From Squalus acanthias (taxonomy: Eukaryota), in assembly GCA_030390025.1 (NCBI GenBank), contig CM059431.1, positions 145,888,001 to 145,952,000 of the forward strand: 64,000 nt of DNA, read 5' to 3'. The notes beneath the pieces are model-generated. The model saw only the letters and a program-made list of their open reading frames with translations, had not been told where the DNA came from and did not search any database. Position 1 is the first letter of the stretch; each line of letters starts with the position of its first letter. The translations under genes were made by a program, and so were the position numbers. Below, piece after piece: positions 1-55,142 of the stretch.

Positions 1-148
1 GACACAGTGAGGTAATCAGTGGAACACGGAGAGTGAGAGTGTGAGGTACACAGTGTGTTCAATTACTGGAACACAGAGAGTCATAGTGTGAGGGACACAG
101 TTTGTAAAATTACTGGAAGAGGGAAAGTGAGAATGTGAGAGACACAGT
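1..148 (+). repeat. 47-bp satellite, diverged edge monomers (array continues beyond window start)
   Basis: About 3 degenerate copies of the AATTACTGGAACACGGAGAGTGAGAGTGTGAGGGACACAGAGTGTAC unit. Confidence 0.9.
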
Positions 149-857
149 GGGCTGGATTTTGATACTGGGGCGGGTTGGGGTCGTGTTATCCACCCGACTG
201 TTATTGGATGTGGGAGATTGATGCAATTTTCACCTATTGGGCAATTGAGTTCCAGCATGTGGGAACCCATGAACCAATTAGTGGTTTCAGTCTGAAAGTC
301 GCCTCTGATGATGTCATCATTGCTGCTGCATTGAAGGTCAGAGACTGCCTGGCCTTTGCTGTGAGAGGACCTGGATGCAAAATGAGCAGCAGAGAGAGAG
401 AGAGAGAGAGAGAATTTTACATACAGGTCCTCTCCCAGCAAAGGCCAGGCAGTCTCTGAAGACTTTCAATGCAGCAGCATCAGAGGCGACTTTCAGACCT
501 AGTACTACTACCTTCACATCTCCGTTGTAATAGTAGCTGATAGTGAGCTATCCAAATGTGTTCCCACCAGGTTTCACAATCGTGGTTCAGAACAGGCGTG
601 CTTCATGCAGATCAAGGGTTAAAATCACAAAGGCCTTTCAAAATGGCATTATAGAGTCAATTTAGTGCTTGTTAAGGGCCTTAACAGCCTATCCCGCCTC
701 TTAAAGGCGGGATGGAGTCGGGGCCAGCAGACATGATTTAATGAAAATTCCGTGGAGGCGGGATGGAGGCGGACTTGTGCCTGCAGGCCAGTTTTCGCAA
801 TATTAACCCCCCACAAGCCTCCAAACCGGCCTCCACGGGTCAATGAAAATCCAGCCC
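149..857. mobile_element. Non-autonomous PIF/Harbinger-type MITE, copy 1 (709 bp)
   Basis: Perfect 12-bp terminal inverted repeats (TIRs) GGGCTGGATTTT (149-160) / AAAATCCAGCCC (846-857); 3-bp TSD AGT (146-148, 858-860); no credible ORF; removing it restores a satellite monomer. G-started short TIRs with a 3-bp TSD are typical of Harbinger. Confidence 0.88.
290..498. repeat. Long internal inverted repeat of MITE 1 centred on (AG)11
   Basis: Arm 290-383 (GTCTGAAAGTCGCCTCTGATG...GGACCTGGATGCAAAAT) is the imperfect reverse complement of arm 414-498 (ATTTTACATACAGGTCC...CATCAGAGGCGACTTTCAGAC); (AG)11 at 391-412. Confidence 0.9.
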
Positions 858-1048
858 AGTGTGTTCAATTACTAGAACAGGGAGAGTGAGAGTGTGAGGG
901 ACACAGTGTGTAGAATTACTGGAACACGAAGACTGAGAGTGTGAGGGAAACAGAGTGTATAATTACTGGAACATGGAGACTGAGAGTGTGAGGGACACAG
1001 AGTGTATAATTACTGGAACACGGAGAGTGAGAGTGTGAGGGAAACAGT
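858..1048 (+). repeat. 47-bp satellite (~4 monomers between the MITEs)
   Basis: Tandem copies of the 47-bp unit. Confidence 0.92.
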
Positions 1049-1835
1049 GGGCTGGATTTTGAATGACCCATGGAGTCGGGTTTGGAGGCGTGTGGGGGGT
1101 TAAATTTGCGGGGTCGGGGTTTCCGACCCCATCCCGACTCCACGCAATTTTGACAAAATCAGTCGCGGGGTTCCCGACTCTGTCCCGCCTCCAAGAGGCG
1201 GGAGAGGCCATTAAAGCCCTTAACAAGCTCGAAATTGGCTCTGTAATGCCATTTTGAAACGTTTTAGCTAGTTTAACCCTTTTCTGACGTGAAGTACGCC
1301 TGATGTGAAACACTCCAGTGAAACCTGGCGGGAGCACAAGTGGACAGCTGACTATCGGCTGCAGGTCCACTATTACAACGGAGATATGATGAAGGTAGTA
1401 GTAGTATTAGGTCTGAAAGTCGCCTCTGATGCTGCTGCATTGAATGTCTTCAGAGACTGCCTAGGAGGACTTGGTTGCAAAAAAAAGTATCTGTCTCTCT
1501 GTCTCTCTGTCTCTCTCTCTCTCTCTGTCTCTCTCTCTCTCTGTCTCTCTCTCTCTCACACATTTTTGCATCCAGGTCCACTCACATCAAAAGCAAGCCA
1601 GGCAGGTCCTCTCTCATCAACAGTATCTGAGACTAGGCAGTCAGCAATGATGACATCATCAGAGGCGACTTTCAGACTGAAAACACTAATTAGTTCATGG
1701 GTTCCCACATGCTCTAACTCAATAGCCCAATTAAGTGAAAATTGCATCAGGCATCCACATTAATCAGGAGTCGGGGGGGAAACACGAAATACGGATTACA
1801 CGACCCCAACCCGACCCCAAGACAAAATCCAGCCC
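1049..1835. mobile_element. Non-autonomous PIF/Harbinger-type MITE, copy 2 (787 bp), inverted relative to copy 1
   Basis: TIRs GGGCTGGATTTT (1049-1060) / AAAATCCAGCCC (1824-1835); TSD AGT (1046-1048, 1836-1838). Its left end matches the reverse complement of the right end of copy 1 and vice versa, with many substitutions. Same internal fold-back (1411-1677) around a (TC)n tract (~1489-1556). Confidence 0.88.
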
Positions 1836-3248
1836 AGTGTGTTCAATTACTGGAAAACGGAGACTGGGAGTGGGTGTGTGAGAGACACAGTGTGTTAAAT
1901 TACTGGAACACGGAGAGTGAGAGTGTGAGGGACACAGAGTGTGCAATTACTGGAACAAGAAGAGTGAGAGTGTGAGGGACACAGTGTGTTCAATTACTGG
2001 AACACGGAGAGTGAGAGTGTGAGGGACACAGTGTGTTCAATTACTGGAACACGGAGTGTGAGAGTGTGAGGAACACAGTGTGTGTAATTACTGAAACAAG
2101 TAAAGTGATAGTGTGAGGGACACAGAGTGTACAATGACTGGAACACGGAGATTGAGAGTATGTGGGAGACAGGCTGTACAATTACTGAAACATGGAGAGT
2201 GAGAGTGCGAGGGACACAGTGTGTTAAATTACTGGAACACGGAGAGTGAGAGTGTGAGGGACAGGGTGTGCAAAAATTACTGGGACACGGAGAGTGTCAG
2301 GGACAGAGAGTGTGCAATTACTGGAACATGGAGAGTGAGAGTGTGTGGGACACAGTGTGTACAATTACTTGAACACGGAGAGTGAGAGTGTGAGGGACAC
2401 AGTGTGTAGAATTACTGGAACACGGAGAATGAGAGTGTGAGGGACACAGTGTTTGTAAAATTACTGGAACACGGAGAGTGAGAGTGTGAGGGACACAGAG
2501 TGTCCAATTACTGGAACACGGAGAGTGAGAGTGTGAGGGACACAAAGTGTACAATTACAGTAACACGGAGAGTGAGAGTGTGAGGGACACAGAGTGTAGA
2601 AATACTGGAACACGGAGAGTGAGAGTGTGAGGGACACAGAGAGTACAATTGCTGGAACACAGAGAGTGAGAGTGTGAGGGACACAGAGCGTAAAATTACT
2701 GGAACACGGAGAGTGAGAGTGTGAGGGACAGGGTGTGCAAAAATTACTGGGACACGGAGAGTGTCAGGGACAGAGAGTGTGCAATTACTGGAACATGGAG
2801 AGTGAGAGTGTGTGGGACACAGTGTGTACAATTACTTGAACACGGAGAGTGAGAGTGTGAGGGACACAGTGTGTAGAATTACTGGAACACGGAGAATGAG
2901 AGTGTGAGGGACACAGTGTTTGTAAAATTACTGGAACACGGAGAGTGAGAGTGTGAGGGACACAGAGTGTCCAATTACTGGAACACGGAGAGTGAGAGTG
3001 TGAGGGACACAAAGTGTACAATTACAGTAACACGGAGAGTGAGAGTGTGAGGGACACAGAGTGTAGAAATACTGGAACACGGAGAGTGAGAGTGTGAGGG
3101 ACACAGAGAGTACAATTGCTGGAACACAGAGAGTGAGAGTGTGAGGGACACAGAGCGTAAAATTACTGGAACATGGAGAGTGAGAGTGCGAGGGACACAG
3201 AGTGTGCAATTACTGGAACACGGAGAGTAAGAGTGTGAGGGACACAGA
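1836..3248 (+). repeat. 47-bp satellite including a 467-bp (10-monomer) tandem duplication at ~2226-3173
   Basis: Tandem monomers; the rare variant ACAGGGTGTGCAAAAATTAC recurs at 2261 and 2728 (offset 467). Confidence 0.92.
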
Positions 3249-3563
3249 GGGGTAAAAATTCACTTGGTTGCGCCTCCCGTTAGCGCCTTAAGAGGGCGCT
3301 AATGGGGCGTTTAGCCGCTAACGCCCGGGCACAGCGATGTTTGCGCCGCTCGAGAACTTAACTTGAGATTGTGCGGCGGCGCTAAAACTTACCGCTGCGA
3401 CCACCTGCGCGCGCAGATTGTGACTTCATTCCATGGTGCAACGCCCTTGGGGCCCCCCGGTGTGGAAATTGAGTGGCGCCCCCTGCCTTACCGCCTGGCG
3501 CTTCCAACGACCCGAAGACTGGAACTCTATCAATCGGTGTGGGGCTGGGGTGGGGGGGGGCGC

Positions 3564-3571
3564 TATTTAAA
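3564..3571 (+). promoter_or_regulatory. Possible TATA-like element upstream of the transposase
   Basis: TATTTAAA ~200 bp before the ATG at 3762, preceded by G-rich boxes; motif match only. Confidence 0.35.
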
Positions 3572-3761
3572 GGGAGCCTCTTCCTGTCTTTTTCTGTGGT
3601 CGACATTTATGCACCACTCGTTCTGAGAGCGAGAGAGAGATTCGGAGAGAGAGAGAGACTTCTACATTGACTCAACGCTTTGTGAGGTAGTTTTGCCTAT
3701 TCATCCTAACTTTGTTGCTACTTTAGTTGCTGTACCTCATTACTTTTCTGGCAAAGAGAAT

Positions 3762-4922
3762 ATGGGGGCTGCAATGATTGGGGGCGTCGTCCTGCTCCAG
3801 CTGAATCGGAGGATACCAAGACGCAGACAGAGAGTGGCAATGATGGCCAGACGGAGGAGGGCCATCAGGCGCATGTACAGGAGAGCTTACCCTCCCAGGG
3901 TATATCGTGAACAGCTCTCCTAAATCCATATGTCCGAGGAGCTGTGTTTGCAAAGGCTGCGATTCAGCAAGGAGGTGGTCACTGAGCTCTGCCACCTGCT
4001 GCAGCCAGATCTGCAGCCTCAGCTGAGGTCCAGGACGTCTCTGTCGGTGGCAGTGAAGGTCACAGTAGCTTTGAACTTCTACGCCACTGGCTCATTCCAA
4101 GCTCCTGTTGGGGACCTCGCCAATATCTCCCAGTTTGCGGTGCATCGCTGCATCCGGCAGGTCACCAATGCCCTCTTCAGAAGGAGATGAGACTTCATCT
4201 CTTTCCCTATGACCCCAGACAAGCAGCGTGACCGTGCTCTGGGCTTTGCGAGGGTAGCGGGCTTCCCCATGGTGCAGGGCGCCATTGACTGCACGCATGT
4301 GGCTTTGCGTGCTCCGCGAGAGAATGCAGAGGAATTCAGGAACAGAAAGGGGTTCCATTCCTTGAATGTGCAGTTGGTCTGTGACCACAGACAGGTGATA
4401 CTCGCTGTCAATGCCCACTATCCGGGCAGCTGCCACGATGCTTTCATCCTGCACCAGACTACTGTGGCAGAAGTTTTCGAGGCACCGCATCAGCCAGTTG
4501 GTTGGCTTCTGGGGGACAAGGGGTACGCATTGAGCACCTGGCTGATGACACCGCTCCGTATGCCAAACACCCCTGCTGAGCTGCGGTACAATGAAAGCCA
4601 TCAAGCAACCAGGAACATTATTGAGCGCACAATCGGCGTGCTGAAACAACGGTTCCACTGTCTGGACCATTCCGGAGGAGCCCTGCAGTACTCGCCTGAG
4701 CAAGTTTCGAACTTCGTAGTCGTGTGCTGCATGTTGCACAACATGGCAATCCTCAGGACCCAGCCAATGCCACCAGGCCTTGTAGCACCACCAGAGGAGG
4801 AGGAGGAAGAGGAGGAAGAGGACGAGGACGATGATCATCAGCAGCACCAAGGCAGGAGGGCGGCCCACAATGGTCAAACTGCAAGGGCCGTCCGTCAACG
4901 ACTAATAGCAAGCCGCTTCTAG
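3762..4922 (+). pseudogene. Harbinger transposase (HARBI1-family DDE nuclease), ~386 codons, two in-frame stops
   Basis: ORFs 3693-3923, 3930-4190 and 4209-4922 share one frame and are separated only by TAA (3921-3923) and TGA (4188-4190). Motifs: LRFSKE...L, ALNFYATGSFQ, GAIDCTHV, RNRKGFHSLNVQLVCD, YPGSCHDAFIL, LLGDKGY, RNIIERTIGVLKQRF, CCMLHN; acidic tail. Confidence 0.93.
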
Positions 4923-5033
4923 GGCCCCTGCCATTGCTACAAACATTAATCAACCCAGCACGCAACCCCTAAGCCGGCCAAGGCACCAATAATTCCAACC
5001 ACCAGCCATGTATATTTTGAATACAGAAACTTA

Positions 5034-5039
5034 TTTATT
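5034..5039 (-). terminator. Candidate polyadenylation signal for the Myb/SANT gene
   Basis: TTTATT on the + strand (AATAAA on -), ~180 nt past the stop at 5217. Confidence 0.55.
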
Positions 5040-5083
5040 TTACAAACTCTGTGTGTGTCAATTCCTCATGACAAACTCATAGA

Positions 5084-5089
5084 AATAAA
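5084..5089 (+). terminator. Candidate polyadenylation signal for the transposase (a second one at 5184-5189)
   Basis: AATAAA ~160 nt past the stop at 4922. Confidence 0.55.
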
Positions 5090-5216
5090 CACAAAAAAAC
5101 AGTCAATAACATAACTGGTTCTCACAACCTGGAGATAATGTCCAAAACACTAAACAAAAGTTGGACCATGAACCTCGGCCTTTAATAAAAAAATGACCAG
5201 CATTTTGTCACACCTC

Positions 5217-7154
5217 CTACTTTTTGCCCTTCGAGGGTGATCTCCTTCCCTTACGCACTTCCCCCCTTCTAACCCTACTGCTCCTCCGTAATGGGACCTC
5301 AGTGGCTGCAGCAAGGCTGGTGGAAGGCTGCTGCTCGTCAGACCCTGACACTGCAGATGCCCCTGAAGGACGGCCTCGACCACTTCTGGGCCTGGAGGGC
5401 CCTGCTGCAGACTGCACCAACTCTGCATGGGCGGCAGCAGTCTGTCCTACAGGCGGTGGCAAGTGCAGTGGAGAAGTGACAGTGTTGGCAGCAGGAATGC
5501 TGTTATCGTGAGAGAGGCCAGCAACTCCCTGCTCGCCCGACACACTGGCACTCCCACGGGGCAGCACTTCAGCATCCGGAGCAATCTGCCGGAGAACAGA
5601 TTGCTGGCCTGCTGCGGTGCGGTGACAGCCCCGGGGACATGTGCACGAACCATCGAGGTTGGCAGCAGTCTGTGCTCGCGTGGCCTCCATCTGAGTCTGT
5701 ATGAGAGCAATCAGAGGTGGGATCACGGCAGCCAGTGACTGAATTGCAGCACTAAGCGTTAGTGTGGCATCCGCCTGTGCTACAGCGAAGTGCTCCACAC
5801 TCCTTGCCAGTGACTCAATGCATTCGGGCACCCTTCCCACTGCACCCATGAGCTCAGTGTGCATGCCCACCGCCTGGGTGTTCATTTCTGCAATCAGCCG
5901 CTCCTCCTCTGCGTCCATTGCAGTAGGAGTGTCTGGCATACTCTCCCTCTGGGGAGAAGGCCCCCGTTCTTCCCTACCCCCCCCCCCCCCCATGGCATTG
6001 CTGCAGCCCGCTGGGTCCTGGAGCTTCACCATCATCAGCCCCTTCCCCCCTGCTCCCCTCCGGGGAAGGCGTGTTCCCAGTGTGGGCATGGGCTTCCTCG
6101 GGAGAGGGTGGCACTGATGCTCTGGCTTCCTCTTCCTCCTCAGCTGCAGCATCACTCCCAGTGGCAGCTTCAGGGCCCGTCTCCTCAGCTGGTGAATCAC
6201 CATCTGAAAGCAGGGAGGTACAAGAGTGGCTTTAGCGTGAGGACAGGGTGGCAGTAAGGGAGGAATAAGTGCAGCGAGTTAGCAAGTTGGATTGAAAGTG
6301 TCAAAGGCTGGTGTTGTGAGGGACAAGTGGAAGGACAGAGGACAAAAAGGTGATGACCTTACCATTGCTGTCCACAACGGGGTCGGCGTCTCCAGTGGCG
6401 ACGGGACCGATCACCCGGCTTGCCACAATCCTGTGGACGCGCTCCTCCAGAACGCTGAGGGGTTGCAGCTGAAGCCGCCCTCCACCTGTCCGTTGCTGCT
6501 GTCTCCTATTATGAGCCAGCTTGGCCTGCAAGAAAAAGGACAGCATCTGAGTAAATATACAGCCATGGTCTTGCCTGATGTGCCTCCCATAGGTGAATAG
6601 CCCTTACAATATACAGCCATGGTCTTGCCTGATGTGCCTCCCATAGGTGAATAGCCCTTACAATGTACAGCCATGGTCTTGCCTGATGTGCCTCCCATAG
6701 GTGAATAGCCCTTACAATATACAGCCATGGTCTTGCCTGATGTACCTCCCATAGGTGAATAGCCCTTACTGTATGCAAAGTGTGGAATGTGCGTGTGTGT
6801 TTGATGAAAGGGCCATAGGTGTTGGATGAGTGTTGTGCATTGGGGTTTTAAGACCCTCTGGCCATAGAGTGAGGTTGAGATGGAGGGATGGAGAGGTATT
6901 GAGAAAAAGCCACTCACCCTGACGACCCGAGTGAGGTTGTTGAACTTTTTGCGGCATTGAGTATGGATCCTGGGCACCATGCTCCTGGAGGAGACGCTCT
7001 GAGCCACCTCCCTCCACACTCTTCTGAACTCGCGTGGCAAAGGCCTCCTGCCACTCTCAGGGAACAGCATACATCGTCTGCGCTCCACTGCATCAACCAG
7101 AGCATCCAAGGCCCGCTCGGTGAAGCGATGAGCGCGTTCTCTCACCCTCTCCAT
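5217..7154 (-). pseudogene. Harbinger ORF2 Myb/SANT (trihelix)-like DNA-binding protein; exons 7154-6918, 6525-6363, 6203-5217; frameshift at a G15 run
   Basis: Exon 1 encodes RFTERALDALVDAV...RRVWREVAQSV...RIHTQCRKKFNNL (Myb/SANT-like). Donor GTGAGT at 6917; acceptor TTCTTGCAG before 6525; exon 2 AKLAHNRRQQQRTGGG; donor GTAAGG at 6362 (phase 1); acceptor CTTTCAG before 6203. The spliced frame gives an acidic linker (DGDSPAEETGPEAA...EEEEE) and hits TAG right after the G15 run (5991-5977). Removing one G joins it to the open frame ending at 5217 (~460 aa). Confidence 0.82.
6554..6769. repeat. 54-bp minisatellite, 4 near-identical copies, in intron 1 of the Myb/SANT gene
   Basis: AGCCATGG recurs at 6561, 6615, 6669 and 6723; unit AATATACAGCCATGGTCTTGCCTGATGTGCCTCCCATAGGTGAATAGCCCTTAC. 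Confidence 0.95.
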
Positions 7155-7514
7155 GCTTGGCAGCAAAATGGATTACAGGTCTCTCCAGGCTGAGATTCAA
7201 GGCTGCAATGAGCAGGGTGTGGCTGGGGAGCAAGTGCCCCCCCCCCCCGCTTTAAGAAGTGTCCGGCGCCAGTGTGTCTGTGTTCCCTCGCTAACTGGCA
7301 ACAGCTGCGCTGCACTCGCGCGCTGAATTAGCGCCTCACTCCTTGGCCTTTGCACCTTAAGAGAGGTGTGCAGCGCCTGCTTTAGCGCTCCACTCACCTC
7401 CCGGGGCGGTAAAAGTGAAGTTTCCTGTCAGTACCGATAATTAGCGAAAGGCGCTAATATTTGCGTCCGGACGATATTTGCGCCCCAAATGGGGCGCGAC
7501 CTAATTTCTACCCC

Positions 7515-10500
7515 AGAGTGTACAATTACTAGAATACAGAGAGTGAGAGTGTGAGGGACACAGAGTGTCTAATTACTGGAACATAGAGAGTGAGAGTGCG
7601 AGGGACACAGAGTGTACAATTGCTGGAACACGGAGAGTAAGAGCGTGAGGGACACAGAGTGTTCAATTACTGGAACACGGAGAGTGAGAGTGTGAGGGAC
7701 ACAGAGTGTACAATTACTGGAACACGGAGTGTGAGAGTGTGAGGAACACAGTGTGTGTAATTACTGAAACAAGTAAAGTGATAGTGTGAGGGACACAGAG
7801 TGTACAAATACTGGAACACGGAGATTGAGAGTGTGAGGGTCACAGTGTGTACAATTACTGGAAAACGGAAAGTGAGTGTGTGAGGGAAACAGAGTGTATA
7901 ATTACTGGATCACGGAGAGTGAGAGTGCGAGGGACACAGAGTGTACAATTACTGGAACACGGAGAGTTAGAGTGTGAGGGACACAGAGTACAATTGCTGG
8001 AACACAGAGAGTGAGAGTGTGAGGGACACAGAGTGTAAGATTGCTGGAACACGGAGAGTGAGAGTGTGAGGGACACAGAGTGTACAATTACTGGAACACG
8101 GAGAGTGAGAGTCTGAGGGACACAGAGTGTACAATTACTGGAACACGGAGAGTGAGAGTGTGAGGGACACAGTGTGTGGAATTACTGGAACACGGAGAGT
8201 GAGAGTGTGAGGGACACAGAATGTACAATTACTGAAACACGGAGAGTGAGAGTGTCAGGGACAGAGAGTGTGCGATTACTGGAACACGGAGAGTGAGAGT
8301 GTGAGGGCCACAGAGAGTACAATTACTGGAACACGGAGAGTGAGAGTGTGAGGGACACAGAGTGTACAATTACTGGAACACGGAGAGTGAGAGTGTGAGG
8401 GACACAGTGTGTAACAATTAGTGGAACACGGCGAGTGAGAGTGTGAGGGACACAGTATGTCCATTTACTGGAACACGGAGAGTGAGAGTGTCAGGGACAC
8501 CGTGTGTACAATTACTGGAACACGGAGAGTGAGAGTGCGAGGGACACAGTTAGTGTAAAATTACAGGAACACGGAGAGTTATAGTGTGAGGTACACAAAG
8601 AGTACAATTACTGGAACACGGAGAGTGAGAGTGTGAAGGATACAGAATGTACAATTACTGGAATACGGTGAGTGAGAGTGAGAGGGACACAGAATGTACA
8701 ATTACTGGAACACGGAGAGTGAGAGTGTGAGGGACACAGAGTGTACAATTACTGGAACACAGAGAGTGAGAGTGTGAGGGACACAGAGTGTACAATTACT
8801 GGAACACGGAGAGTGAGAGTGTGAGGGACACCGTATGTACAATTACTGGAACACGGAGAGTGAGAGTGTGAGGGACACAGAATGTACAATTACTGGAACA
8901 TGGAGAGTGAGAGTGCGAGGGACACAGTGCGTTAAATTACTGGAACACGGAGAGTGAGAGTGTGAGGGACACAGTTTGTGCAATTACTGGAACACGGAGA
9001 GTTTCAGGGACAGAGAGTGTGCAATTACTGGAACATGGAGAATGAGAGTGTGAGGGACACAGAGTGTGAAATTACTGGAACAAGGAGAGTGAGAGTGTGA
9101 GGGACACAGAGTGTTCAATTACTGGAACACGGAGAGTGAGAGTGTGAGGGACACTGTGAAATTACTGGAACACGGAGAGTGAGAGTGTGAGGGACACAGT
9201 GTGTGGAATTACTGGATCACGGAGAGTGAGAGTGTGAGGAACACAGAGTGTTAATTATTGGATCAGGGAGAGGAGAGTGTGAGGGACACAGAGTGTTCAA
9301 TTACTGGATCACGGAGAGTGAGAGTGTGAGGGACACAGTGTGTGGAATTACTGGATCACGGAGAGTGAGAGTGTGAGGGAAACAGAGGGTGTAATTACAG
9401 GATTACGGAGAGTGAGAGTGCGAGGGAAACAGAGTGTGAAATTACTGGAACATGGAGAGTGAGAGTGTGAGGGACACAGAGTGTTCAATTACTGGAACAC
9501 GGAGAGTGAGAGTGTGAGGGACACTGTGAAATTACTGGAACACGGAGAGTGAGAGTGTGAGGGACACAGTGTGTGGAATTACTGGAACACGGAGAGTGAG
9601 AGTGTGAGGAACACAGAGTGTTAATTACTGGAACACGGAGAGTGAGAGTGTGAGGGACACAGAGTGTACAATTACTGGAACATAGAGAGTGAGAGTGCGA
9701 GGGACACAGAGTGTACAATTGCTGGAACACGGAGAGTAAGAGCGTGAGGGACACAGAGTGTTCAATTACTGGAACACGGAGAGTGAGAGTGTGAGGGACA
9801 CAGAGTGTACAATTACTGGAACACGGAGTGTGAGAGTGTGAGGAACACAGTGTGTGTAATTACTGAAACAAGTAAAGTGATAGTGTGAGGGACACAGAGT
9901 GTACAAATACTGGAACACGGAGATTGAGAGTGTGAGGGTCACAGTGTGTACAATTACTGGAAAACGGAAAGTGAGTGTGTGAGGGAAACAGAGTGTATAA
10001 TTACTGGATCACGGAGAGTGAGAGTGCGAGGGACACAGAGTATACAATTACTGGAACACGGAGAGTTAGAGTGTGAGGGACACAGAGTACAATTGCTGGA
10101 ACACAGAGAGTGAGAGTGTGAGGGACACAGAGTGTAAGATTGCTGGAACACGGAGAGTGAGAGTGTGAGGGACACAGAGTGTACAATTACTGGAACACGG
10201 AGAGTGAGAGTCTGAGGGACACAGAGTGTACAATTACTGGAACACGGAGAGTGAGAGTGTGAGGGACACAGTGTGTGGAATTACTGGAACACGGAGAGTG
10301 AGAGTGTGAGGGACACAGAATGTACAATTACTGAAACACGGAGAGTGAGAGTGTCAGGGACAGAGAGTGTGCGATTACTGGAACACGGAGAGTGAGAGTG
10401 TGAGGGCCACAGAGAGTACAATTACTGGAACACGGAGAGTGAGAGTGTGAGGGACACAGAGTGTACAATTACTGGAACACGGAGAGTGAGAGTGTGAGGG

Positions 10501-13500
10501 CCACAGTGTGTAACAATTAGTGGAACACGGCGAGTGAGAGTGTGAGGGACACAGTATGTCCATTTACTGGAACACGGAGAGTGAGAGTGTCAGGGACACC
10601 GTGTGTACAATTACTGGAACACGGAGAGTGAGAGTGCGAGGGACACAGTTAGTGTAAAATTACAGGAACACGGAGAGTTATAGTGTGAGGTACACAAAGA
10701 GTACAATTACTGGAACACGGAGAGTGAGAGTGTGAAGGACACAGAATGTACAATTACTGGAATACGGTGAGTGAGAGTGAGAGGGACACAGAATGTACAA
10801 TTACTGGAACACGGAGAGTGAGAGTGTGAGGGACACAGAGTGTACAATTACTGGAACACGGAGAGTGAGAGTGTGAGGGACACAGAGTGTACAATTACTG
10901 GAACACGGAGAGTGAGAGTGTGAGGGACACCGTATGTACAATTACTGGAACACGGAGAGTGAGAGTGTGAGGGACACAGAATGTACAATTACTGGAACAT
11001 GGAGAGTGAGAGTGCGAGGGACACAGTGCGTTAAATTACTGGAACACAGAGAGTGAGAGTGTGAGGGACACAGTTTGTGCAATTACTGGAACACGGAGAG
11101 TGTCAGGGACAGAGAGTGTGCAATTACTGGAACATGGAGAATGAGAGTGTGAGGGACACAGAGTGTGAAATTACTGGAACAAGGAGAGTGAGAGTGTGAG
11201 GGACACAGAGTGTTCAATTACTGGAACACGGAGAGTGAGAGTGTGAGGGACACTGTGAAATTACTGGAACACGGAGAGTGAGAGTGTGAGGGACACAGTG
11301 TGTGGAATTACTGGATCACGGAGAGTGAGAGTGTGAGGAACACAGAGTGTTAATTATTGGATCAGGGAGAGGAGAGTGTGAGGGACACAGAGTGTTCAAT
11401 TACTGGATCACGGAGAGTGAGAGTGTGAGGGACACAGTGTGTGGAATTACTGGATCACGGAGAGTGAGAGTGTGAGGGAAACAGAGTGTGTAATTACAGG
11501 ATTACGGAGAGTGAGAGTGCGAGGGAAACAGAGTGTGAAATTACTGGAACAAGGAGAGTGAGAGTGTGAGGGACACAGAGTGTTCAATTACTGGAACACG
11601 GAGAGTGAGAGTGTGAGGGACACTGTGAAATTACTGGAACACGGAGAGTGAGAGTGTGAGGGACACAGTGTGTGGAATTACTGGAACACGGAGAGTGAGA
11701 GTGTGAGGAACACAGAGTGTTAATTATTGGATCACGGAGAGTGAGAGTGTGAGGGACACAGAGTGTTCAATTACTGGATCACTGAGAGTGAGAGTGTGAG
11801 GGAAACAGTGTGTGGAATTACTGGAACACGGAGAGTGAGAGTATGAGGGAAACAGAGTGTATAATTACTGGATCACGGAGAGTGAGAGTGCGAGGGACAC
11901 AGAGTGTACAATTACTGGAACACGGAGAGTTAGAGTGTGAGGGACACAGAGTACAATTGCTGGAACACAGAGATTGAAAGTGTGAGGGACACAGAGTGTA
12001 CAATTACTGGAACATGGAGAGTGAGAGTGCGAGGGACACAGAGTGTAAAATTGCTGGAACACGGAGAGTGAGAGTGTGAGGGACACAGTGTGTGGAATTA
12101 CTGGATCACGGAGAGTGAGAGTGTGAGGGAAACAGAGGGTGTAATTACAGGATTACGGAGAGTGAGAGTGCGAGGGAAACAGAGTGTGAAATTACTGGAA
12201 CATGGAGAGTGAGAGTGTGAGGGACACAGAGTGTTCAATTACTGGAACACGGAGAGTGAGAGTGTGAGGGACACTGTGAAATTACTGGAACACGGAGAGT
12301 GAGAGTGTGAGGGACACAGTGTGTGGAATTACTGGAACACGGAGAGTGAGAGTGTGAGGAACACAGAGTGTTAATTATTGGATCACGGAGAGTGAGAGTG
12401 TCAGGGACAGAGAGTGTGCGACTACTGGAACACGGAGAGTGAGAGTGTGAGGGCCACAGAGAGTACAATTACTGGAACACGGAGAGTGAGAGTGTGAGGG
12501 ACACAGAGTGTACAATTACTGGAACACGGAGAGTGAGAGTGTGAGGGACACAGTGTGTAACAATTAGTGGAACACGGCGAGTGAGAGTGTGAGGGACACA
12601 GTATGTCCATTTACTGGAACACGGAGAGTGAGAGTGTCAGGGACACCGTGTGTACAATTACTGGAACACGGAGAGTGAGAGTGCGAGGGACACAGTTAGT
12701 GTAAAATTACAGGAACACGGAGAGTTATAGTGTGAGGTACACATAGAGTACAATTACTGGAACACGGAGAGTGAGAGTGTGAAGGACACAGAATGTACAA
12801 TTACTGGAATACGGAGAGTGATAGTGAGAGGGACACAGAATGTACAATTACTGGAACACGGAGAGTGAGAGTGTGAGGGACACAGAGTGTACAATTACTG
12901 GAACACGGAGAGTGAGAGTGTGAGGGACACAGAGTGTACAATTACTGGAACACGGAGAGTGAGAGTGTGAGGGACACCGTATGTACAATTACTGGAATAC
13001 AGAGAGTGAGAGTGTGAGGGACACAGAGTGTCTAATTACTGGAACATAGAGAGTGAGAGTGCGAGGGACACAGAGTGTACAATTGCTGGAACACGGAGAG
13101 TAAGAGCGTGAGGGACACAGAGTGTTCAATTACTGGAACACGGAGAGTGAGAGTGTGAGGGACACAGAGTGTACAATTACTGGAACACGGAGTGTGAGAG
13201 TGTGAGGAACACAGTGTGTGTAATTACTGAAACAAGTAAAGTGATAGTGTGAGGGACACAGAGTGTACAAATACTGGAACACGGAGATTGAGAGTGTGAG
13301 GGTCACAGTGTGTACAATTACTGGAAAACGGAAAGTGAGTGTGTGAGGGAAACAGAGTGTATAATTACTGGATCACGGAGAGTGAGAGTGCGAGGGACAC
13401 AGAGTGTACAATTACTGGAACACGGAGAGTTAGAGTGTGAGGGACACAGAGTACAATTGCTGGAACACAGAGAGTGAGAGTGTGAGGGACACAGAGTGTA

Positions 13501-16500
13501 AGATTGCTGGAACACGGAGAGTGAGAGTGTGAGGGACACAGAGTGTACAATTACTGGAACACGGAGAGTGAGAGTCTGAGGGACACAGAGTGTACAATTA
13601 CTGGAACACGGAGAGTGAGAGTGTGAGGGACACAGTGTGTGGAATTACTGGAACACGGAGAGTGAGAGTGTGAGGGACACAGAATGTACAATTACTGAAA
13701 CACGGAGAGTGAGAGTGTCAGGGACAGAGAGTGTGCGATTACTGGAACACGGAGAGTGAGAGTGTGAGGGCCACAGAGAGTACAATTACTGGAACACGGA
13801 GAGTGAGAGTGTGAGGGACACAGAGTGTACAATTACTGGAACACGGAGAGTGAGAGTGTGAGGGACACAGTGTGTAACAATTAGTGGAACACGGCGAGTG
13901 AGAGTGTGAGGGACACAGTATGTCCATTTACTGGAACACGGAGAGTGAGAGTGTCAGGGACACCGTGTGTACAATTACTGGAACACGGAGAGTGAGAGTG
14001 CGAGGGACACAGTTAGTGTAAAATTACAGGAACACGGAGAGTTATAGTGTGAGGTACACAAAGAGTACAATTACTGGAACACGGAGAGTGAGAGTGTGAA
14101 GGACACAGAATGTACAATTACTGGAATACGGTGAGTGAGAGTGAGAGGGACACAGAATGTACAATTACTGGAACACGGAGAGTGAGAGTGTGAGGGACAC
14201 AGAGTGTACAATTACTGGAACACGGAGAGTGAGAGTGTGAGGGACACAGAGTGTACAATTACTGGAACACGGAGAGTGAGAGTGTGAGGGACACCGTATG
14301 TACAATTACTGGAACACGGAGAGTGAGAGTGTGAGGGACACAGAATGTACAATTACTGGAACATGGAGAGTGAGAGTGCGAGGGACACAGTGCGTTAAAT
14401 TACTGGAACACAGAGAGTGAGAGTGTGAGGGACACAGTTTGTGCAATTACTGGAACACGGAGAGTGTCAGGGCCAGAGAGTGTGCAATTACTGGAACATG
14501 GAGAATGAGAGTGTGAGGGACACAGAGTGTGAAATTACTGGAACAAGGAGAGTGAGAGTGTGAGGGACACAGAGTGTTCAATTACTGGAACACGGAGAGT
14601 GAGAGTGTGAGGGACACTGTGAAATTACTGGAACACGGAGAGTGAGAGTGTGAGGGACACAGTGTGTGGAATTACTGGATCACGGAGAGTGAGAGTGTGA
14701 GGAACACAGAGTGTTAATTATTGGATCAGGGAGAGGAGAGTGTGAGGGACACAGAGTGTTCAATTACTGGATCACGGAGAGTGAGAGTGTGAGGGACACA
14801 GTGTGTGGAATTACTGGATCACGGAGAGTGAGAGTGTGAGGGAAACAGAGTGTGTAATTACAGGATTACGGAGAGTGAGAGTGCGAGGGAAACAGAGTGT
14901 GAAATTACTGGAACAAGGAGAGTGAGAGTGTGAGGGACACAGAGTGTTCAATTACTGGAACACGGAGAGTGAGAGTGTGAGGGACACTGTGAAATTACTG
15001 GAACACGGAGAGTGAGAGTGTGAGGGACACAGTGTGTGGAATTACTGGAACACGGAGAGTGAGAGTGTGAGGAACACAGAGTGTTAATTATTGGATCACG
15101 GAGAGTGAGAGTGTGAGGGACACAGAGTGTTCAATTACTGGATCACTGAGAGTGAGAGTGTGAGGGAAACAGTGTGTGGAATTACTGGATCACGGAGAGT
15201 GAGAGTGCGAGGGACACAGAGTGTACAATTACTGGAACACGGAGAGTTAGAGTGTGAGGGACACAGAGTACAATTGCTGGAACACAGAGATTGAAAGTGT
15301 GAGGGACACAGAGTGTACAATTACTGGAACATGGAGAGTGAGAGTGCGAGGGACACAGAGTGTAAAATTGCTGGAACACGGAGAGTGAGAGTGTGAGGGA
15401 CATAGAGTGTACAATTACTGGAACACGGAGAGTGAGAGTCTCAGGGACACAGAGTGTACAATTACTGGAACACGGAGAGTGAGAGTGTGAGGGACACAGT
15501 GTGTGGAATTACTGGAACACGGAGAGTGAGAGTGTGAGGGACACAGAATGTACAATTACTGGAACACGGAGAGTGAGAGTGTCAGGGACAGAGAGTGTGC
15601 AATTACTGCAACACGGAGAGTGAGTGTGTGAGGGCCACAGAGAGTACAATTACTGGAACACGGAGAGTGAGAGTGTGAGGGACACAGAGTGTACAATTAC
15701 TGGAACACGGAGAGTGAGAGTGTGAGGGACACAGTGTGTAACAATTACTGGAACACGGCGAGTGAGAGTGTGAGGGACACAGTATGTCCAATTACTGGAA
15801 CACGGAGAGTGAGAGTGTCAGGGACACAGTGTGTGCAATTACTGGAACACGGAGAGTGAGAGTGTCAGGGACACAGTGTGTGCAATTACTGGAACACGGA
15901 GAGTGTCAGGGACACAATGTGTACAATTACTGGAACACGGAGAGTGAGAGTGTCAGGGACACCGTGTGTACAATTACTGGAACATGGAGAGTGAGAGTGC
16001 GAGGGACACAGTTAGTGTAAAATTACTGGAACACGGAGAGTTATAGTGTGAGGTACACATAGAGTACAATTACTGGAACACGGAGAGTGAGAGTGTGAGG
16101 GACACAGAGTGTTCAATTACTGGAACATGGAGAGTGAGAGTGTGATGGACAGAGAGTGTGTAATTACTGGAACATGGAGAGTGAGAGTGTGAGGGACACA
16201 GAGTGTGAAATTACTGGAACAAGGAGAGTGAGAGTGTGAGGGACACAGAGTGTTCAAATACTGGAACACGGAGAGTGAGAGTGTGAGGGACACAGAGTGT
16301 TCAATTACTGGATCACGGAGAGTGAGAATGTGAGGGACACAGTGTGTGGAATTACTGGATCACGGAGAGTGAGAGTGCTTGGGACACAGAGTACAATTGC
16401 TGCAACACAGAGAGTGAAAGTGTGAGGGACACAGAGTGTACAAATACTGGAACATGGAGAGTGAGAGTGCGAGGGACACAGAGTGTACAATTGCAGGAAC

Positions 16501-19500
16501 ACGGAGAGTGAGAGTGTAAGGGACACAAAGTGTACAATTACTGGAACACGGAGAGTGAGAGTGTGAGTGACACAGAGTGTACAATTAATGGAACACGGAG
16601 AGTGAGAGTGTGAGGGACACAGTGTGTGGAATTACTGGAACAAGGAGGATGAGAGTGTGAGGGACACAGAGTGTACAAATACTGGAACATGGAGAGTGAG
16701 AGTGCGAGGGACACAGAGTGTTCAATTGCTGCAACACGGAGAGTGAGTGTGTGAGGGCCACAGAGAGTACAATTACTGGAACACGGAGAGTGAGAGTGTG
16801 AGGGACACAGAGTGTACAATTACTGGAACACGGAGAGTGAGAGTGTGAGGGACACAGTGTGTAACAATTACTGGAACACGGCGAGTGAGAGTGTGAGGGA
16901 CACAGTATGTCCAATTACTGGAACACGGAGAGTGAGAGTGTCAGGGACACAGTGTGTGCAATTACTGGAACACGGAGAGTGAGAGTGTCAGGGACACAGT
17001 GTGCGCAATTACTGGAACACGGAGAGTGTCAGGGACACAATGTGTACAATTACTGGAACACGGAGAGTGAGAGTGTCAGGGACACCGTGTGTACAATTAC
17101 TGGAACATGGAGATTGAGAGTGCGAGGGACACAGTTAGTGTAAAATTACTGGAACACGGAGAGTTATAGTGTGAGGTACACATAGAGTACAATTACTGGA
17201 ACACGGAGAGTGAGAGTGTGAGGGACACAGAGTGTTCAATTACTGGAACATGGAGAGTGAGAGTGTGATGGACAGAGAGTGTGCAATTACTGGAACATGG
17301 AGAGTGAGAGTGTGAGGGACACAGAGTGTGAAATTACTGGAACAAGGAGAGTGAGAGTGTGAGGGACACAGAGTGTTCAAATACTGGAACACGGAGAGTG
17401 AGAGTGTGAGGGACACAGAGTGTTCAATTACTGGATCACGGAGAGTGAGAATGTGAGGGACACAGTGTGTGGAATTACTGGATCACGGAGAGTGAGAGTG
17501 CTTGGGACACAGAGTACAATTGCTGCAACACAGAGAGTGAAAGTGTGAGGGACACAGTGTGTGGAATTACTGGAACAAGGAGAGTGAGAGTGTGAGGGAC
17601 ACAGAGTGTACAATTACTGGAACACGGAGAGTGAGAGTGTCAGGGACAGAGAGTGTGCAATTACCGCAACACGGAGAGTGAGAGTGTGAGGGCCACAGAG
17701 TGTACAATTACTGGAACACGGAGAGTGTCAGGGACACAGAGTGTGCAATTACTGGAACACGGAGAGTGTCAGGGACACAATGTGTACAATTACTGGAACA
17801 CGGAGAGTGAGAGTGTGAGGGACACAGAGTACAATTGCTGGAACACGGAGAGTGAGAGTGTGAGGGACACAGAGTGTACAATTACTGGAACATGGAGAGT
17901 GAGAGTGCGAGGGACACAGTGTGTACAATTGCTGGAACACGGAGAGTGAGAGTGTGAGGGACACAGAGTGTACAATTACTGGAACACGGAGAGTGAGAGT
18001 GTGAGGGACACAGAGTGTACAATTAATGGAACACGGAGAGTGAGAGTGTGAGGGACACAGTGTGTGGAATTACTGGAACAAGGAGAGTGAGAGTGTGAGG
18101 AACACAGAGTGTACAATTACTGGAACACGGAGAGTGAGAGTGTCAGGGACAGAGAGTGTGCAATTACTGGAACACGGAGAGTGAGTGTGTGAGGGCCACA
18201 GAGTGTACAATTACTGGAACACGGAGAGTGAGAGTGTGAGGGAGACAGAGTGTTTAATTACTGGAACACGGAAAGTGAGAGTATGAGGGAAACAGAGTGT
18301 ATAATTACTGGATCAAGGAGAGTGAGAGTCTAAGGGACACAGAGTGTACAATTACTGGAACACGGAGAGTGAGAGTGTGAGGGACACAGTGTGTGGAATT
18401 ACTGGAACACGGAGAGTGAGAGTGTGAGGGACACAGAATGTACAATTACTGAAACACGGAGAGTGAGAGTGTCAGGGACAGAGAGTGTGCGATTACTGGA
18501 ACACGGAGAGTGAGAGTGTGAGGGCCACAGAGAGTACAATTACTGGAACACGGAGAGTGAGAGTGTGAGGGACACAGAGTGTACAATTACTGGAACACGG
18601 AGAGTGAGAGTGTCAGGGACACAGTGTGTAACAATTAGTGGAACACGGCGAGTGAGAGTGTGAGGGACACAGTATGTCCATTTACTGGAACACGGAGAGT
18701 GAGAGTGTCAGGGACACCGTGTGTACAATTACTGGAACACGGAGAGTGAGAGTGCGAGGGACACAGTTAGTGTAAAATTACAGGAACACGGAGAGTTATA
18801 GTGTGAGGTACACAAAGAGTACAATTACTGGAACACGGAGAGTGAGAGTGTGAAGGACACAGAATGTACAATTACTGGAATACGGTGAGTGAGAGTGAGA
18901 GGGACACAGAATGTACAATTACTGGAACACGGAGAGTGAGAGTGTGAGGGACACAGAGTGTACAATTACTGGAACACGGAGAGTGAGAGTGTGAGGGACA
19001 CAGAGTGTACAATTACTGGAACACGGAGAGTGAGAGTGTGAGGGACACCGTATGTACAATTACTGGAACACGGAGAGTGAGAGTGTGAGGGACACAGAAT
19101 GTACAATTACTGGAACATGGAGAGTGAGAGTGCGAGGGACACAGTGCGTTAAATTACTGGAACACAGAGAGTGAGAGTGTGAGGGACACAGTTTGTGCAA
19201 TTACTGGAACACGGAGAGTGTCAGGGACAGAGAGTGTGCAATTACTGGAACATGGAGAATGAGAGTGTGAGGGACACAGAGTGTGAAATTACTGGAACAA
19301 GGAGAGTGAGAGTGTGAGGGACACAGAGTGTTCAATTACTGGAACACGGAGAGTGAGAGTGTGAGGGACACTGTGAAATTACTGGAACACGGAGAGTGAG
19401 AGTGTGAGGGACACAGTGTGTGGAATTACTGGATCACGGAGAGTGAGAGTGTGAGGAACACAGAGTGTTAATTATTGGATCAGGGAGAGGAGAGTGTGAG

Positions 19501-52500: not shown

Positions 52501-53992
52501 GTGTGAGGGACACAGAGTGTTCAATTACTGGAACACGGAGAGTGAGAGTGTCAGGGACACAGAGTACAATTGCTGGAACACGGAGAGTGAGAGTGTGAGG
52601 GACACAGAGTGTACAATTACTGGAACATGGAGAGTGAGAGTGTGAGGAACAGAGAGTGTACAATTGCTGGAACACGGAGAGTGAGAGTGTGAGGGACACA
52701 GAGTGTACAATTACTGGAACACGGAGAGTGAGAGTGTGAGGGACACAGAGTGTACAATTACTGGAACACGGAGAGTGAGAGTGTGAGGGACACAGTGTGT
52801 ACAATTACTGGAACACGGAGAGTGAGAGTGTGAGGGACACAATGTGTGGAATTACTGGAACACGGAGAGTGAGAGTGTGAGGGACACAGAGTGTAAAATT
52901 ACTGGAACACGGAGAGTGAGAGTGTCAGGGACAGAGATTGTGCAATTACTGGAAAACGGAGAGTGAGTGTGTGAGGGACACAGAGTGTACAATTACTGGA
53001 ACACGGAGAGTGAGAGTGTGAGGGACACAGAGTGTACAATTACTGGAACACGGAGAGTGAGAGTGTGAGGGACACAGAGTGTACAATTACTGGAACACGG
53101 AGAGTGAGAGTGTGAGGGACACAGTATGTCCAATTACTGGAACACGGAGAGTGAGAGTGTGAGGGACACAGTGTGTAACAATTACTGGAACACGGAGAGT
53201 GAGAGTGTGAGGGACACAGTATGTCCAATTACTGGAACACGGAGAGTGAGAGTGTCAGGGACACAGTGTGTGCAATTACTGGAACACGGAGAGTGAGAGT
53301 GTCAGGGACACCGTGTGTACAATTACTGGAACACGGAGAGTGAGAGTGCGAGGGACACAGAGTGTACAATTACTGGAACACGGAGAGTGAGAGTGTCAGG
53401 GACAGAGAGTGTGCAATTACTGGAACACGGAGAGTGAGAGTGCGAGGGACACAGAATGTTTAATTACTGGAACACGGAGTGTGTGAGGGACACAGAGTGT
53501 TCAATTACTGGAACACGGAGAGTGAGAGTGTCAGGGACACAGTGGTAACAATTACTGGAACACGGAGAGTGAGAGTGTCAGGGACACAGTGGTAACAATT
53601 ACTGGAACAAGGAGAGTGAGAGTGTGAGGGACACAGAGTGTTAAAATTACTGGAACACGGAGAGTCTGAGGGACACAGAGTGTACAATTACTGGAACACG
53701 GAGAGTGAGAGTGTGAGGGACACAGTGTGTGCAATTACTGGAACACGGAGAATGTCAGGGACACAGAGTGTGCAATTACTGGAACAGGGAGAGTGTCAGG
53801 GACACAGAGTGTGCAATTACTGGAGCACGGAGAGTGAGAGTGTGAGGGACACAATGTGTACAATTACTGGAACACGGAGAGTGTCAGGGACACAGTGTGT
53901 ACAATTACTGGAACACGGAGAGTGTCAGCGACACAATGTGTACAATTACTGGAACACGGAGAGTGTCAGCGACACAATGTGTACAATTACTG
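7515..53992 (+). repeat. Main 47-bp satellite array (~46.5 kb, roughly 1000 monomers) with kb-scale higher-order duplications
   Basis: Uninterrupted head-to-tail monomers in one orientation, with length variants such as 41 bp (GAGAGT lost) and 45 bp; 33/47 purines on +; ends abruptly at ...GTACAATTACTG|ATCTG. Confidence 0.98.
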
Positions 53993-54002
53993 ATCTGTCA
54001 GG

Positions 54003-54174
54003 TTCCAGGAACTTGCGAATTTTTCTCCATGTTCTGCTTCCCGAATTGTGTTCCGCCCATTAGGTTTTGGCACAATTCTGGGTGGAGTCAGCTCCCCCAT
54101 TCTGGCGGTGCTCTGTTGGATGCTGACCAAGAATTGCAATGTGCTGAGTCATCAGCGGGAAAGTGAGTATAAGA
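54003..54174 (+). promoter_or_regulatory. Putative compact promoter of the crystallin-domain gene
   Basis: TTCCAGGAA (STAT/GAS consensus TTCN3GAA, 54003-54011), TGCTGAGTCAT (AP-1/NF-E2-MARE, 54142-54152), TATAAGA (54168-54174); motif matches only. Confidence 0.5.
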
Positions 54175-54260
54175 CCACGCGTGAACCAGGAAACCACTGA
54201 ATGATTTTACTGGCATTGAACTCACTGAAATCTGACGCAGCGACCAAAGCAACAGTCAGG

Positions 54261-54803: not shown

Positions 54804-55068
54804 AAACTCAGTTTGCGAAGAGTTTGAGCGGATCCAGCGCAGGCTGATCTGCTGCCCGCCCTCTGCTGATTGACTGTCCTTCCTTTACTAAACCCACGGT
54901 CTGTAGGAGAGAGAATCTGCATCGAACATCTTTCACTGAATCCTCAACCAGCTCCCCCTCTGCAAACTGCTTCCAAATTGTTGTAACCCTGTAACGCTGC
55001 TGATTGCTGTTCCTCGGTGTAGATTGAGTCTGTAACTTTGCTTGGCTCTATCAGTTCATAACCAATCT

Positions 55069-55074
55069 AATAAA
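55069..55074 (+). terminator. Polyadenylation signal of the crystallin-domain gene
   Basis: AATAAA ~265 nt after the stop, followed by T/GT-rich sequence. Confidence 0.7.
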
Positions 55075-55142
55075 ATTACAATGCTGCAAACTCATTGCCA
55101 ATGTTTCCGTTTGGCTCATTTCTCCAATTCTCTGAAATCTAG

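What the first reader, a model, noticed from the sequence alone, without database searches (positions are those of the whole stretch)
146..7517. Three independent Harbinger insertions at the identical register of a satellite monomer: candidate satellite-targeting transposon system
Seen: the reconstructed empty sites are GAGACAC-AGT-GTGTTCA, GGGAAAC-AGT-GTGTTCA and GGGACAC-AGA-GTGTACA. In each case the duplicated triplet is the same AGW position of the 47-mer, at the centre of a dyad ACAC-NNN-GTGT. The events are independent: the two MITEs are diverged and oppositely oriented, each has its own TSD, and the third element has different TIRs. With uniform insertion over 47 positions the chance is (1/47)^2, about 5e-4. 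Known: Harbinger elements make 3-bp TSDs, and zebrafish Harbinger3_DR prefers an extended palindromic target (AAACAC-CWG-GTCTTT-like). Inference: the satellite is effectively a ~1000-copy array of the preferred target, acting as a landing pad, safe haven or decoy sink for Harbingers. The non-palindromic AGT/AGA TSD differs from the classical TAA/TTA or CWG.
Basis: partly seen in the sequence, partly recalled or inferred. Interest (0 to 1): 0.85.

Follow-up and report, generated by a model that had tools for sequence, protein, structure and literature searches.

The report
Harbinger transposons hitting one satellite site
Three Harbinger-type transposons did land at the same spot of a 47-base repeat unit, but that spot matches the short palindromic target these transposons prefer across the whole genome, so this is ordinary target choice rather than a satellite-seeking system.

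Summary
Two ~0.7-0.8 kb MITEs (149-857 and 1049-1835) and one 4.27-kb two-gene Harbinger (3249-7514) each sit between 3-bp duplications (AGT, AGT, AGA). All three are at the same register of the 47-bp monomer, inside (G/A)A(C/A)AC-AGW-GTGT(T/A).

The three events are independent. The MITEs are 84% identical and inverted relative to each other, and the third element has a different TIR.

Across the genome, 5,874 of 13,821 MITE-type ends and 5,727 of 14,768 Harbinger-type ends carry A-S-W-C just before the 3-bp duplication, against about 1.6% expected. This is the extended palindromic target already described for PIF/Harbinger elements.

A matrix built from copies on another contig puts 75% of the predicted insertion weight in the array on the observed register. 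Three of three there therefore has a probability of about 0.4, not 5e-4.

The satellite is essentially one ~98-kb locus. Its only interruptions are these three elements and a 99.4-100% identical duplicate of the block ~30 kb upstream. It holds 978 of the 22,453 ACAC-AGW-GTGT sites in the genome, and 2 of the 584 MITE ends flanked by ACAC-AGW.

I found no evidence of dedicated satellite targeting, or of a decoy or sink role. Interest is low.

The parts
20..148 (+). 47-bp satellite monomers to the left of M1. 146-148 is the AGT target-site duplication, preceded by the arm GACAC.
149..857 (.). M1, a 709-bp Tourist-like MITE with TIR GGGCTGGATTTT / AAAATCCAGCCC. The AGT is repeated at 858-860.
   Evidence: The 14-mer TIR has 18,032 matches in the genome.
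861..1048 (+). Four satellite monomers between the MITEs. 1046-1048 is AGT, preceded by the arm GAAAC.
1049..1835 (.). M2, a 787-bp MITE of the same family, inverted relative to M1 and 84% identical to it. The AGT is repeated at 1836-1838.
1839..3248 (+). Satellite with a 467-bp higher-order period. 3246-3248 is the AGA duplication, preceded by the arm GACAC.
3249..7514 (+). H3, a 4,266-bp PIF/Harbinger element with TIR GGGGTAAAAATT / AATTTCTACCCC. The AGA is repeated at 7515-7517.
   Evidence: At least 150 copies in the genome have a 98-99% identical transposase domain.
3762..4922 (+). Transposase reading frame of H3. It is interrupted by in-frame stops at 3921-3923 (TAA) and 4188-4190 (TGA). 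The DDE_Tnp_4 domain lies in 4191-4919.
6930..7157 (-). First exon of the second Harbinger gene, carrying the Myb/SANT-like DNA-binding domain. An open stretch further downstream on the minus strand (5217-6278) has no Pfam match.
7518..53992 (+). Uninterrupted main array of the 47-bp satellite, about 1,000 monomers. It has no further insertion of 40 bp or more.

Best explanation
Two unrelated-TIR families of PIF/Harbinger transposons inserted independently into a local 47-bp satellite. One is a high-copy MITE family. The other is a young family that encodes its own transposase and Myb-like protein.

Like other members of the superfamily, their transposition machinery prefers a short two-fold symmetric target, R-A-(C/G)-(A/T)-C, then 3 bp, then G-(A/T)-(C/G)-T-Y. 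It cuts with a 3-bp stagger, which produces the 3-bp duplication. Each monomer carries exactly one strong match, GACAC-AGW-GTGT(A/T)C, so any insertion into the array is expected at that register.

The coincidence of register is therefore ordinary sequence preference acting on a tandem repeat. It is not a mechanism that recognises the satellite.

Shown: the anatomy, the independence of the events, the genome-wide target logo, the register prediction, and the single-locus nature of the satellite. Inferred: that the preference lies in the transposase or ORF1 complex, as published for relatives, and the expected insertion numbers.
For: 1. Genome-wide logo from copies outside the satellite. I tallied by eye the first 100 listed flanks for each family, all on contig C1.
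- MITE family: A at -7 in 90, C or G at -6 in 77, A or T at -5 in 86, C at -4 in 77 and T in 17. The duplicated triplet is A/T-rich.
- H3 family: A at -7 in 85, C at -4 in 65 and T in 21.

2. Machine checks of the tallies.
- A-S-W-C at -7..-4 occurs in 5,874 of 13,821 MITE-type ends.
- It occurs in 5,727 of 14,768 H3-type ends.
- The expectation from base composition is about 1.6% (my arithmetic from the background).
- For 22 full-length H3-family copies read by script, A at -7 is 18/22 and C at -4 is 14/22.

3. Register prediction. With these matrices the observed register takes 73-81% of the weight on the consensus monomer and 75% on the real 46-kb array for both families. That gives 0.75^3 = 0.42 for all three.

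4. The same arm plus triplet is common elsewhere. 584 MITE ends in the genome are flanked by ACAC-AGW, and 2 of them are in the satellite. Rows such as AGACAC-AGT, AAACAC-AGA and TGCATTAAGACAC-AGA appear.

5. Both families repeatedly hit the same position of other dispersed repeats, for example TGCTGTATAACTC-TAT and ATAGAGTC-ATA. L007 shows both flanks.

6. A different GT-rich array on C10 carries a MITE in GAGAC-AGW-GTGTG.

7. Literature (passages read). An extended insertion preference of 9-15 bp is described as a feature of all characterised PIF/Harbinger elements (PMC2836001). Harbinger3_DR integrates into AAACACCWGGTCTTT (PMC3016246), and both arms of that sequence fit A-S-W-C.
Against: The matrices rest on 100 hand-tallied flanks per family. 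They assume that positions are independent and that the two arms are independent.

Some flanks recur because the targets are themselves repeats, or because copies were duplicated after insertion. This inflates parts of the logo.

The central G of AGT/AGA is a minority choice. It is 19.8% S for the MITE family and 8.9% for the H3 family, and up to a tenth of the H3 figure may be chance matches, since the backward control gave 131 against 1,314.

The three events lie within 7.4 kb of a ~77-kb non-duplicated array. Sequence preference does not explain this. My estimate for such clustering under even placement is about 0.03.

Against a plain uniform-per-base expectation of about 0.4 insertions, three is an excess. 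The array is therefore probably a real local hot target, though for the ordinary reason.
Confidence: 0.87

Rival explanations
1. Dedicated satellite targeting. The Harbinger proteins recognise the satellite as such, through extra sequence, tandem arrangement or chromatin. The array would then serve as a landing pad, safe haven or decoy sink.
For: Three of three insertions fall at one register. The array has about 140 times the genomic density of core-motif sites. Three events exceed a uniform-per-base expectation of about 0.4 (my arithmetic).
Against: The satellite is essentially one ~98-kb locus.

Genome-wide junction searches found satellite-context junctions only for the six C7 elements. 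One search gave 2 of 5 rows, one search gave 4 of 59 and one search gave 2 of 26.

Only 2 of 584 ACAC-AGW-flanked MITE ends are in the array, while the array holds 978 of the 22,453 ACAC-AGW-GTGT sites.

The motif-weighted expectation is about 6 MITE and about 1 H3-family insertions, against 2 and 1 observed (my arithmetic). That is not an excess.
Confidence: 0.04
2. The insertions are not independent. M1 and M2 descend from one insertion copied by unequal exchange within the array, with one copy flipped by recombination between its TIRs. That would leave only two events.
For: The array does copy its insertions. The whole M1-M2-H3 block recurs ~30 kb upstream. M1 and M2 have the same TIR and the same AGT duplication.
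Against: M1 and M2 are only 84% identical, with 111 gap columns. Proven duplicates are 100% (M1), 99.4% (M2) and 99.46% (H3) identical.

Their left arms differ, GACAC against GAAAC.

Even with two events, the register match would still need target preference to explain it.
Confidence: 0.03
3. Pure chance, with insertion uniform over the monomer.
For: None beyond the small number of events (three).
Against: The chance under this null is 4.5e-4. The families show a 25-27-fold excess of A-S-W-C at their ends across the genome.
Confidence: 0.01

Closest known systems
Harbinger3_DR of zebrafish (reconstructed; Sinzelle et al. 2008, cited through PMC3016246 and PMC2836001; the original paper is not held)
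   Same: It has two genes, a DDE transposase and a Myb-like ORF1, and makes a 3-bp duplication. It has a strong extended palindromic target, AAACAC-CWG-GTCTTT. Both arms of that target (ACAC, and GTCT read as AGAC) fit the A-S-W-C arms found here.
   Different: The central triplet here is A/T-rich (T-W-A or W-W-W) rather than CWG. The TIRs differ. The preference here comes from genomic copies, not from de novo insertions.
Maize PIF and rice mPing/Ping/Pong (Tourist-like MITEs)
   Same: High-copy MITEs mobilised in trans, with 3-bp A/T-rich duplications. The 9-bp preference is the duplication plus 3 bp on each side (PMC2836001, passages read). The published maize consensus, as I recall it, has C-W-C and G-W-G arms, which would match positions -6..-4 here. 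A search for that string found no held paper.
   Different: These are plant elements. The preference here extends to at least -7/-8, with A at -7 in 85-90%.
Truly repeat-specific transposons, such as R2 in 28S rDNA, Pokey in rDNA and Dada in small-RNA genes (named from my own knowledge; no paper read here)
   Same: Recurrent insertion at one position of a tandemly repeated unit.
   Different: In those families most or all copies sit in the target repeat. Here 6 elements out of many thousands do, and the same short motif is used everywhere else.

Membership tests
PIF/Harbinger superfamily (element H3) | DDE transposase of the DDE_Tnp_4 / PIF type | tested here: met
   PF13359 E = 7.4e-39, profile positions 1-158 of 158. 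This copy has two in-frame stops.
PIF/Harbinger superfamily (element H3) | Second gene with a Myb/SANT-like DNA-binding domain | tested here: met
   PF13873 E = 1.8e-7 and PF13837 E = 3.2e-6, on the opposite strand at 6930-7157.
PIF/Harbinger superfamily (H3 and the MITEs) | 3-bp target-site duplication and short TIRs | tested here: met
   AGT, AGT and AGA in the window. Of 11 loci examined elsewhere, 7 held a MITE TIR pair, and 6 of those 7 have identical 3-bp flanks.
PIF/Harbinger superfamily (H3 and the MITEs) | Target preference extending beyond the 3-bp duplication | tested here: met
   A-S-W-C occurs in 42.5% and 38.8% of ends, against about 1.6% expected.
Tourist-like MITE mobilised by a Harbinger (M1, M2) | An autonomous partner with matching TIRs | not tested
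   H3's TIR shares only GGG-T--A--TT with the MITE TIR. No coding element with GGGCTGGATTTT ends was looked for.
Repeat-specific (satellite-targeting) transposon | Most copies lie in the target repeat | tested here: not met
   Only the six C7 elements are in satellite context, out of 18,032 MITE-type and 14,768 or more H3-type ends.
Repeat-specific (satellite-targeting) transposon | Per-site occupancy higher in the repeat than at identical sites elsewhere | tested here: inconclusive
   2 of 584 ACAC-AGW ends (0.3%) lie in the array, while 978 of 22,453 full sites (4.4%) do. This points to no excess.

The most novel reading that the evidence does not exclude
Beyond the per-site motif, tandem arrays of the palindromic target might be favoured. 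This could happen through cooperative or sliding capture by the transposase-ORF1 complex. Such satellites would then act as real local sinks for a young, possibly still active vertebrate-type Harbinger family, and insertions would be co-amplified with the array by segmental duplication. The present counts do not require this, and they lean against it.
Probability: 0.05. Interest if true: 0.55.

Novelty: new member of a known kind. Interest (0 to 1): 0.15.

Why it matters
The main value is as a caution. Identical insertion registers in a tandem repeat look very improbable under a uniform null, but they are expected when a transposon has an extended target motif and the repeat unit carries one good match.

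The case also gives a usable target logo for two abundant Harbinger-type families in this genome. It also shows that a satellite can have a predicted per-base insertion propensity 33-fold (MITE family) and 6-fold (H3 family) above ordinary DNA. It does not reveal a new targeting mechanism.

Tried and rejected
Searching for other satellite-embedded copies at other registers.
- Direct scan of the whole array, 124 kb read, for interruptions of 40 bp or more. It found only the three elements and their upstream duplicates.
- Genome-wide junction patterns with 0-30 nt gaps. No further satellite junctions appeared; the other rows are chance anchor matches or other repeats. For the MITE family, registers 12-16 of 47 were not covered outside the scanned locus. 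For the H3 family, 16 registers were not covered outside it.

Earlier notes of this scan returned nothing.

The original Harbinger3_DR paper is not held. The maize PIF consensus string is in no held paper.

A BLAST comparison of the upstream and window halves first listed only one long match. H3 and its duplicate were then aligned directly.

I did not use structure prediction, protein database searches, sequencing-run tools or complex prediction, because none bears on the question.
Full report
WHAT IS THERE

The window is C7:145888001-145952000 of a 3.7-Gb genome. It opens inside a 47-bp satellite, whose consensus from 508 monomers is ATTACTGGAACACGGAGAGTGAGAGTGTGAGGGACACAGAGTGTACA. Three elements interrupt the satellite.

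- M1 (149-857) and M2 (1049-1835) share the terminal inverted repeat GGGCTGGATTTT. Each is flanked by AGT on both sides.
- H3 (3249-7514) ends in GGGGTAAAAATT / AATTTCTACCCC and is flanked by AGA.
- The reconstructed empty sites are GACAC-AGT-GTGTT, GAAAC-AGT-GTGTT and GACAC-AGA-GTGTA. All three use the same AGW of the monomer.

H3 is a PIF/Harbinger element.
- Its plus-strand frame matches DDE_Tnp_4 (E = 7.4e-39).
- A minus-strand exon matches Myb/SANT-like domains (E = 1.8e-7).
- Its transposase frame carries two in-frame stops, at 3921-3923 and 4188-4190.

INDEPENDENCE

M1 and the reverse complement of M2 are 84% identical, with 111 gap columns. They are oppositely oriented and their left arms differ.

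The array does copy its insertions. A scan of 124 kb (the window plus 60 kb upstream) found the satellite running from about C7:145844266 to 145941993. Its only interruptions of 40 bp or more are M1, M2 and H3, plus a second M1-M2-H3 block about 30 kb upstream.

That upstream block is a segmental duplicate.
- 16.7 kb aligns at 99.36%.
- M1 is 100% identical to its copy and M2 is 99.4%.
- H3 is 99.46% identical to its copy.
- The satellite downstream of H3 is only 87-91% alike.

The array therefore records three independent events, each later copied once.

IS IT MORE THAN CHANCE, AND WHY

The proper null is the families' own target preference.

The 14-mer MITE TIR occurs 18,032 times in the genome. 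The H3-type TIR pattern occurs 14,768 times with the anchor I used. I tallied by eye the first 100 listed flanks for each family, all on contig C1 and far from the satellite.

- MITE family: -8 is G or A in 78; -7 is A in 90; -6 is C in 44 and G in 33; -5 is A in 52 and T in 34; -4 is C in 77 and T in 17. The triplet is A/T in 81, 81 and 91.
- H3 family: -7 is A in 85; -4 is C in 65 and T in 21. The triplet is close to T-W-A.

Machine checks agree with the tallies.
- A-S-W-C at -7..-4 is found in 5,874 of 13,821 MITE-type ends (42.5%).
- It is found in 5,727 of 14,768 H3-type ends (38.8%).
- The expectation from base composition is about 1.6%.
- One search returned 30 loci. I set aside the two C7 copies, leaving 28. 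Six of those showed no TIR in the stretch held and were dropped. The remaining 22 full-length H3-family copies, read by script, give A at -7 in 18 and C at -4 in 14.

The target is thus R-A-S-W-C, NNN, G-W-S-T-Y. This is the extended palindromic preference described for the superfamily, "9 bp in plants and 15 bp in vertebrates" (PMC2836001, passages read). Harbinger3_DR uses AAACACCWGGTCTTT (PMC3016246, passage read), and its arms fit the same A-S-W-C.

PREDICTION FOR THE SATELLITE

I scored all 47 registers with these matrices, using two arms and the triplet read from both sides.
- On the consensus monomer, GACAC-AGW-GTGTA takes 81% (MITE) and 59-73% (H3 family) of the weight.
- On the real 46-kb array it takes 75% for both families.
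- The other exact core match in the monomer, ACAC-GGA-GAGT, is penalised by its G/C-rich triplet.

Three of three at the top register therefore has a probability of about 0.42.

Mean likelihood ratio per position is 0.96-0.98 in 44.7 kb of ordinary DNA. In the array it is 31.5 for the MITE family and 5.8 for the H3 family. The array is a predicted hot target, because it is dense in ordinary good sites: 25.3 core-motif sites per kb against 0.18 per kb.

IS THE SATELLITE SPECIALLY TARGETED

The evidence is against it.

- A 28-letter satellite word occurs 546 times in the genome, and 486 of those are in the 124 kb I read. The satellite is essentially one locus.
- Genome-wide searches for TIR-to-satellite junctions at other registers found satellite context only for the six C7 elements. 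One search gave 2 of 5 rows, one search gave 4 of 59 and one search gave 2 of 26.
- The arm-plus-triplet ACAC-AGW flanks 584 MITE ends across the genome, and 2 of those are in the array.
- The full empty site ACAC-AGW-GTGT occurs 22,453 times, and 978 of those are in the array. The array thus holds 4.4% of identical sites but 0.3% of the matching junctions.
- My rough expectation assumes about 9,000 MITE and about 9,800 H3-family copies, about 77 kb of non-duplicated array, and the likelihood ratios above. It gives about 6 MITE and about 1 H3-family insertions, against 2 and 1 observed. A uniform-per-base model would give about 0.4 in all.

The data fit motif-driven insertion with no extra satellite effect. 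These expectations are my own arithmetic. They assume the array had its present size while the families were active.

THE UNUSUAL TRIPLET

AGT and AGA are not classical TWA, but they are a normal minority.
- The middle base is G or C in 2,738 of 13,821 MITE-type ends (19.8%).
- It is G or C in 1,314 of 14,768 H3-type ends (8.9%). The backward control gave 131, so about a tenth of these may be chance.
- Rows such as AGACAC-AGT, AAACAC-AGA and TGCATTAAGACAC-AGA occur outside the satellite.

SUPPORTING PARALLELS

Both families hit the same position of other dispersed repeats again and again, for example TGCTGTATAACTC-TAT, ATAGAGTC-ATA and TGCATTAAGACAC-AAA. Locus L007 shows TAGAGTC-ATA | element | ATA-GAGTCAT. 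A different GT-rich array on C10 hosts a MITE in GAGAC-AGW-GTGTG. Recurrent same-register insertion into repeats is therefore routine in this genome.

WHAT REMAINS OPEN

- All three events lie within 7.4 kb near the proximal part of the array. Sequence preference does not explain this clustering. It may mean that the long uninterrupted part expanded later (inference).
- Two-sided occupancy could not be measured, because further loci could not be fetched.
- The MITEs' autonomous partner was not sought.

VERDICT

The proposed satellite-targeting system reduces to the known extended target preference of PIF/Harbinger elements. Interest is low.

Noticed in passing
Genome-wide; loci L042-L069: The H3 family is young and abundant. 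All 150 scored matches to its transposase domain are 98-100% identical at the protein level, and two of them are the window's own copy and its C7 duplicate. Many sit in open frames of 410-451 codons, out of 96,481 first-look candidates. The family may still be active; the window copy itself has two in-frame stops.
   Followed up: partly
Upstream of the window, C7:145844255-145865212, against window -13975 to 7514: A segmental duplication of about 21 kb at the proximal edge of the array carries all three transposons (99.4-100% identical copies). The satellite downstream of H3 is only 87-91% alike.
   Followed up: yes
Listings: Several identical 13-16-nt flanks recur for both TIR families, for example TGCTGTATAACTC-TAT, ATAGAGTC-ATA, TGCATTAAGACAC-AAA and CAAGCCTAAAGGC-TCT. 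Other dispersed repeats therefore appear to be recurrent targets at fixed positions. Alternatively, composite units were copied after insertion.
   Followed up: partly
Listing: About a dozen MITE right ends are followed by a variable triplet and then G(T/C)CTCTGGATTACTAG, which looks like the terminus of another repeat family. The junction of that repeat with its own flank may recreate a Harbinger target.
   Followed up: no
L011 (G000:C10:51953524-51956575): A degenerate GT-rich tandem array of GTGTGAGACA-like units hosts a MITE in GAGAC-AGT | element | AGA-GTGTG. The two flanking triplets differ by one base.
   Followed up: partly
window 6554-6769: Four copies of a 54-bp tandem repeat (98% matches) lie inside H3. 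They sit between the Myb-like first exon and the downstream open stretch, presumably in an intron.
   Followed up: no
window 1868-3228: Here the 47-bp satellite is organised in a 467-bp higher-order unit (2.9 copies, 93% matches).
   Followed up: no
window 53993-55728 and 55729-64000: The 47-bp array ends at about 53992. About 1.7 kb of unique sequence follows, and then a different 49-bp satellite (170 copies, 78% matches) runs to the end of the window.
   Followed up: no
window 390-420 and 1490-1557: Both MITEs carry an internal (GA)n / (TCTC)n microsatellite, flanked by inverted internal segments. The family's interior therefore looks like a long hairpin.
   Followed up: no
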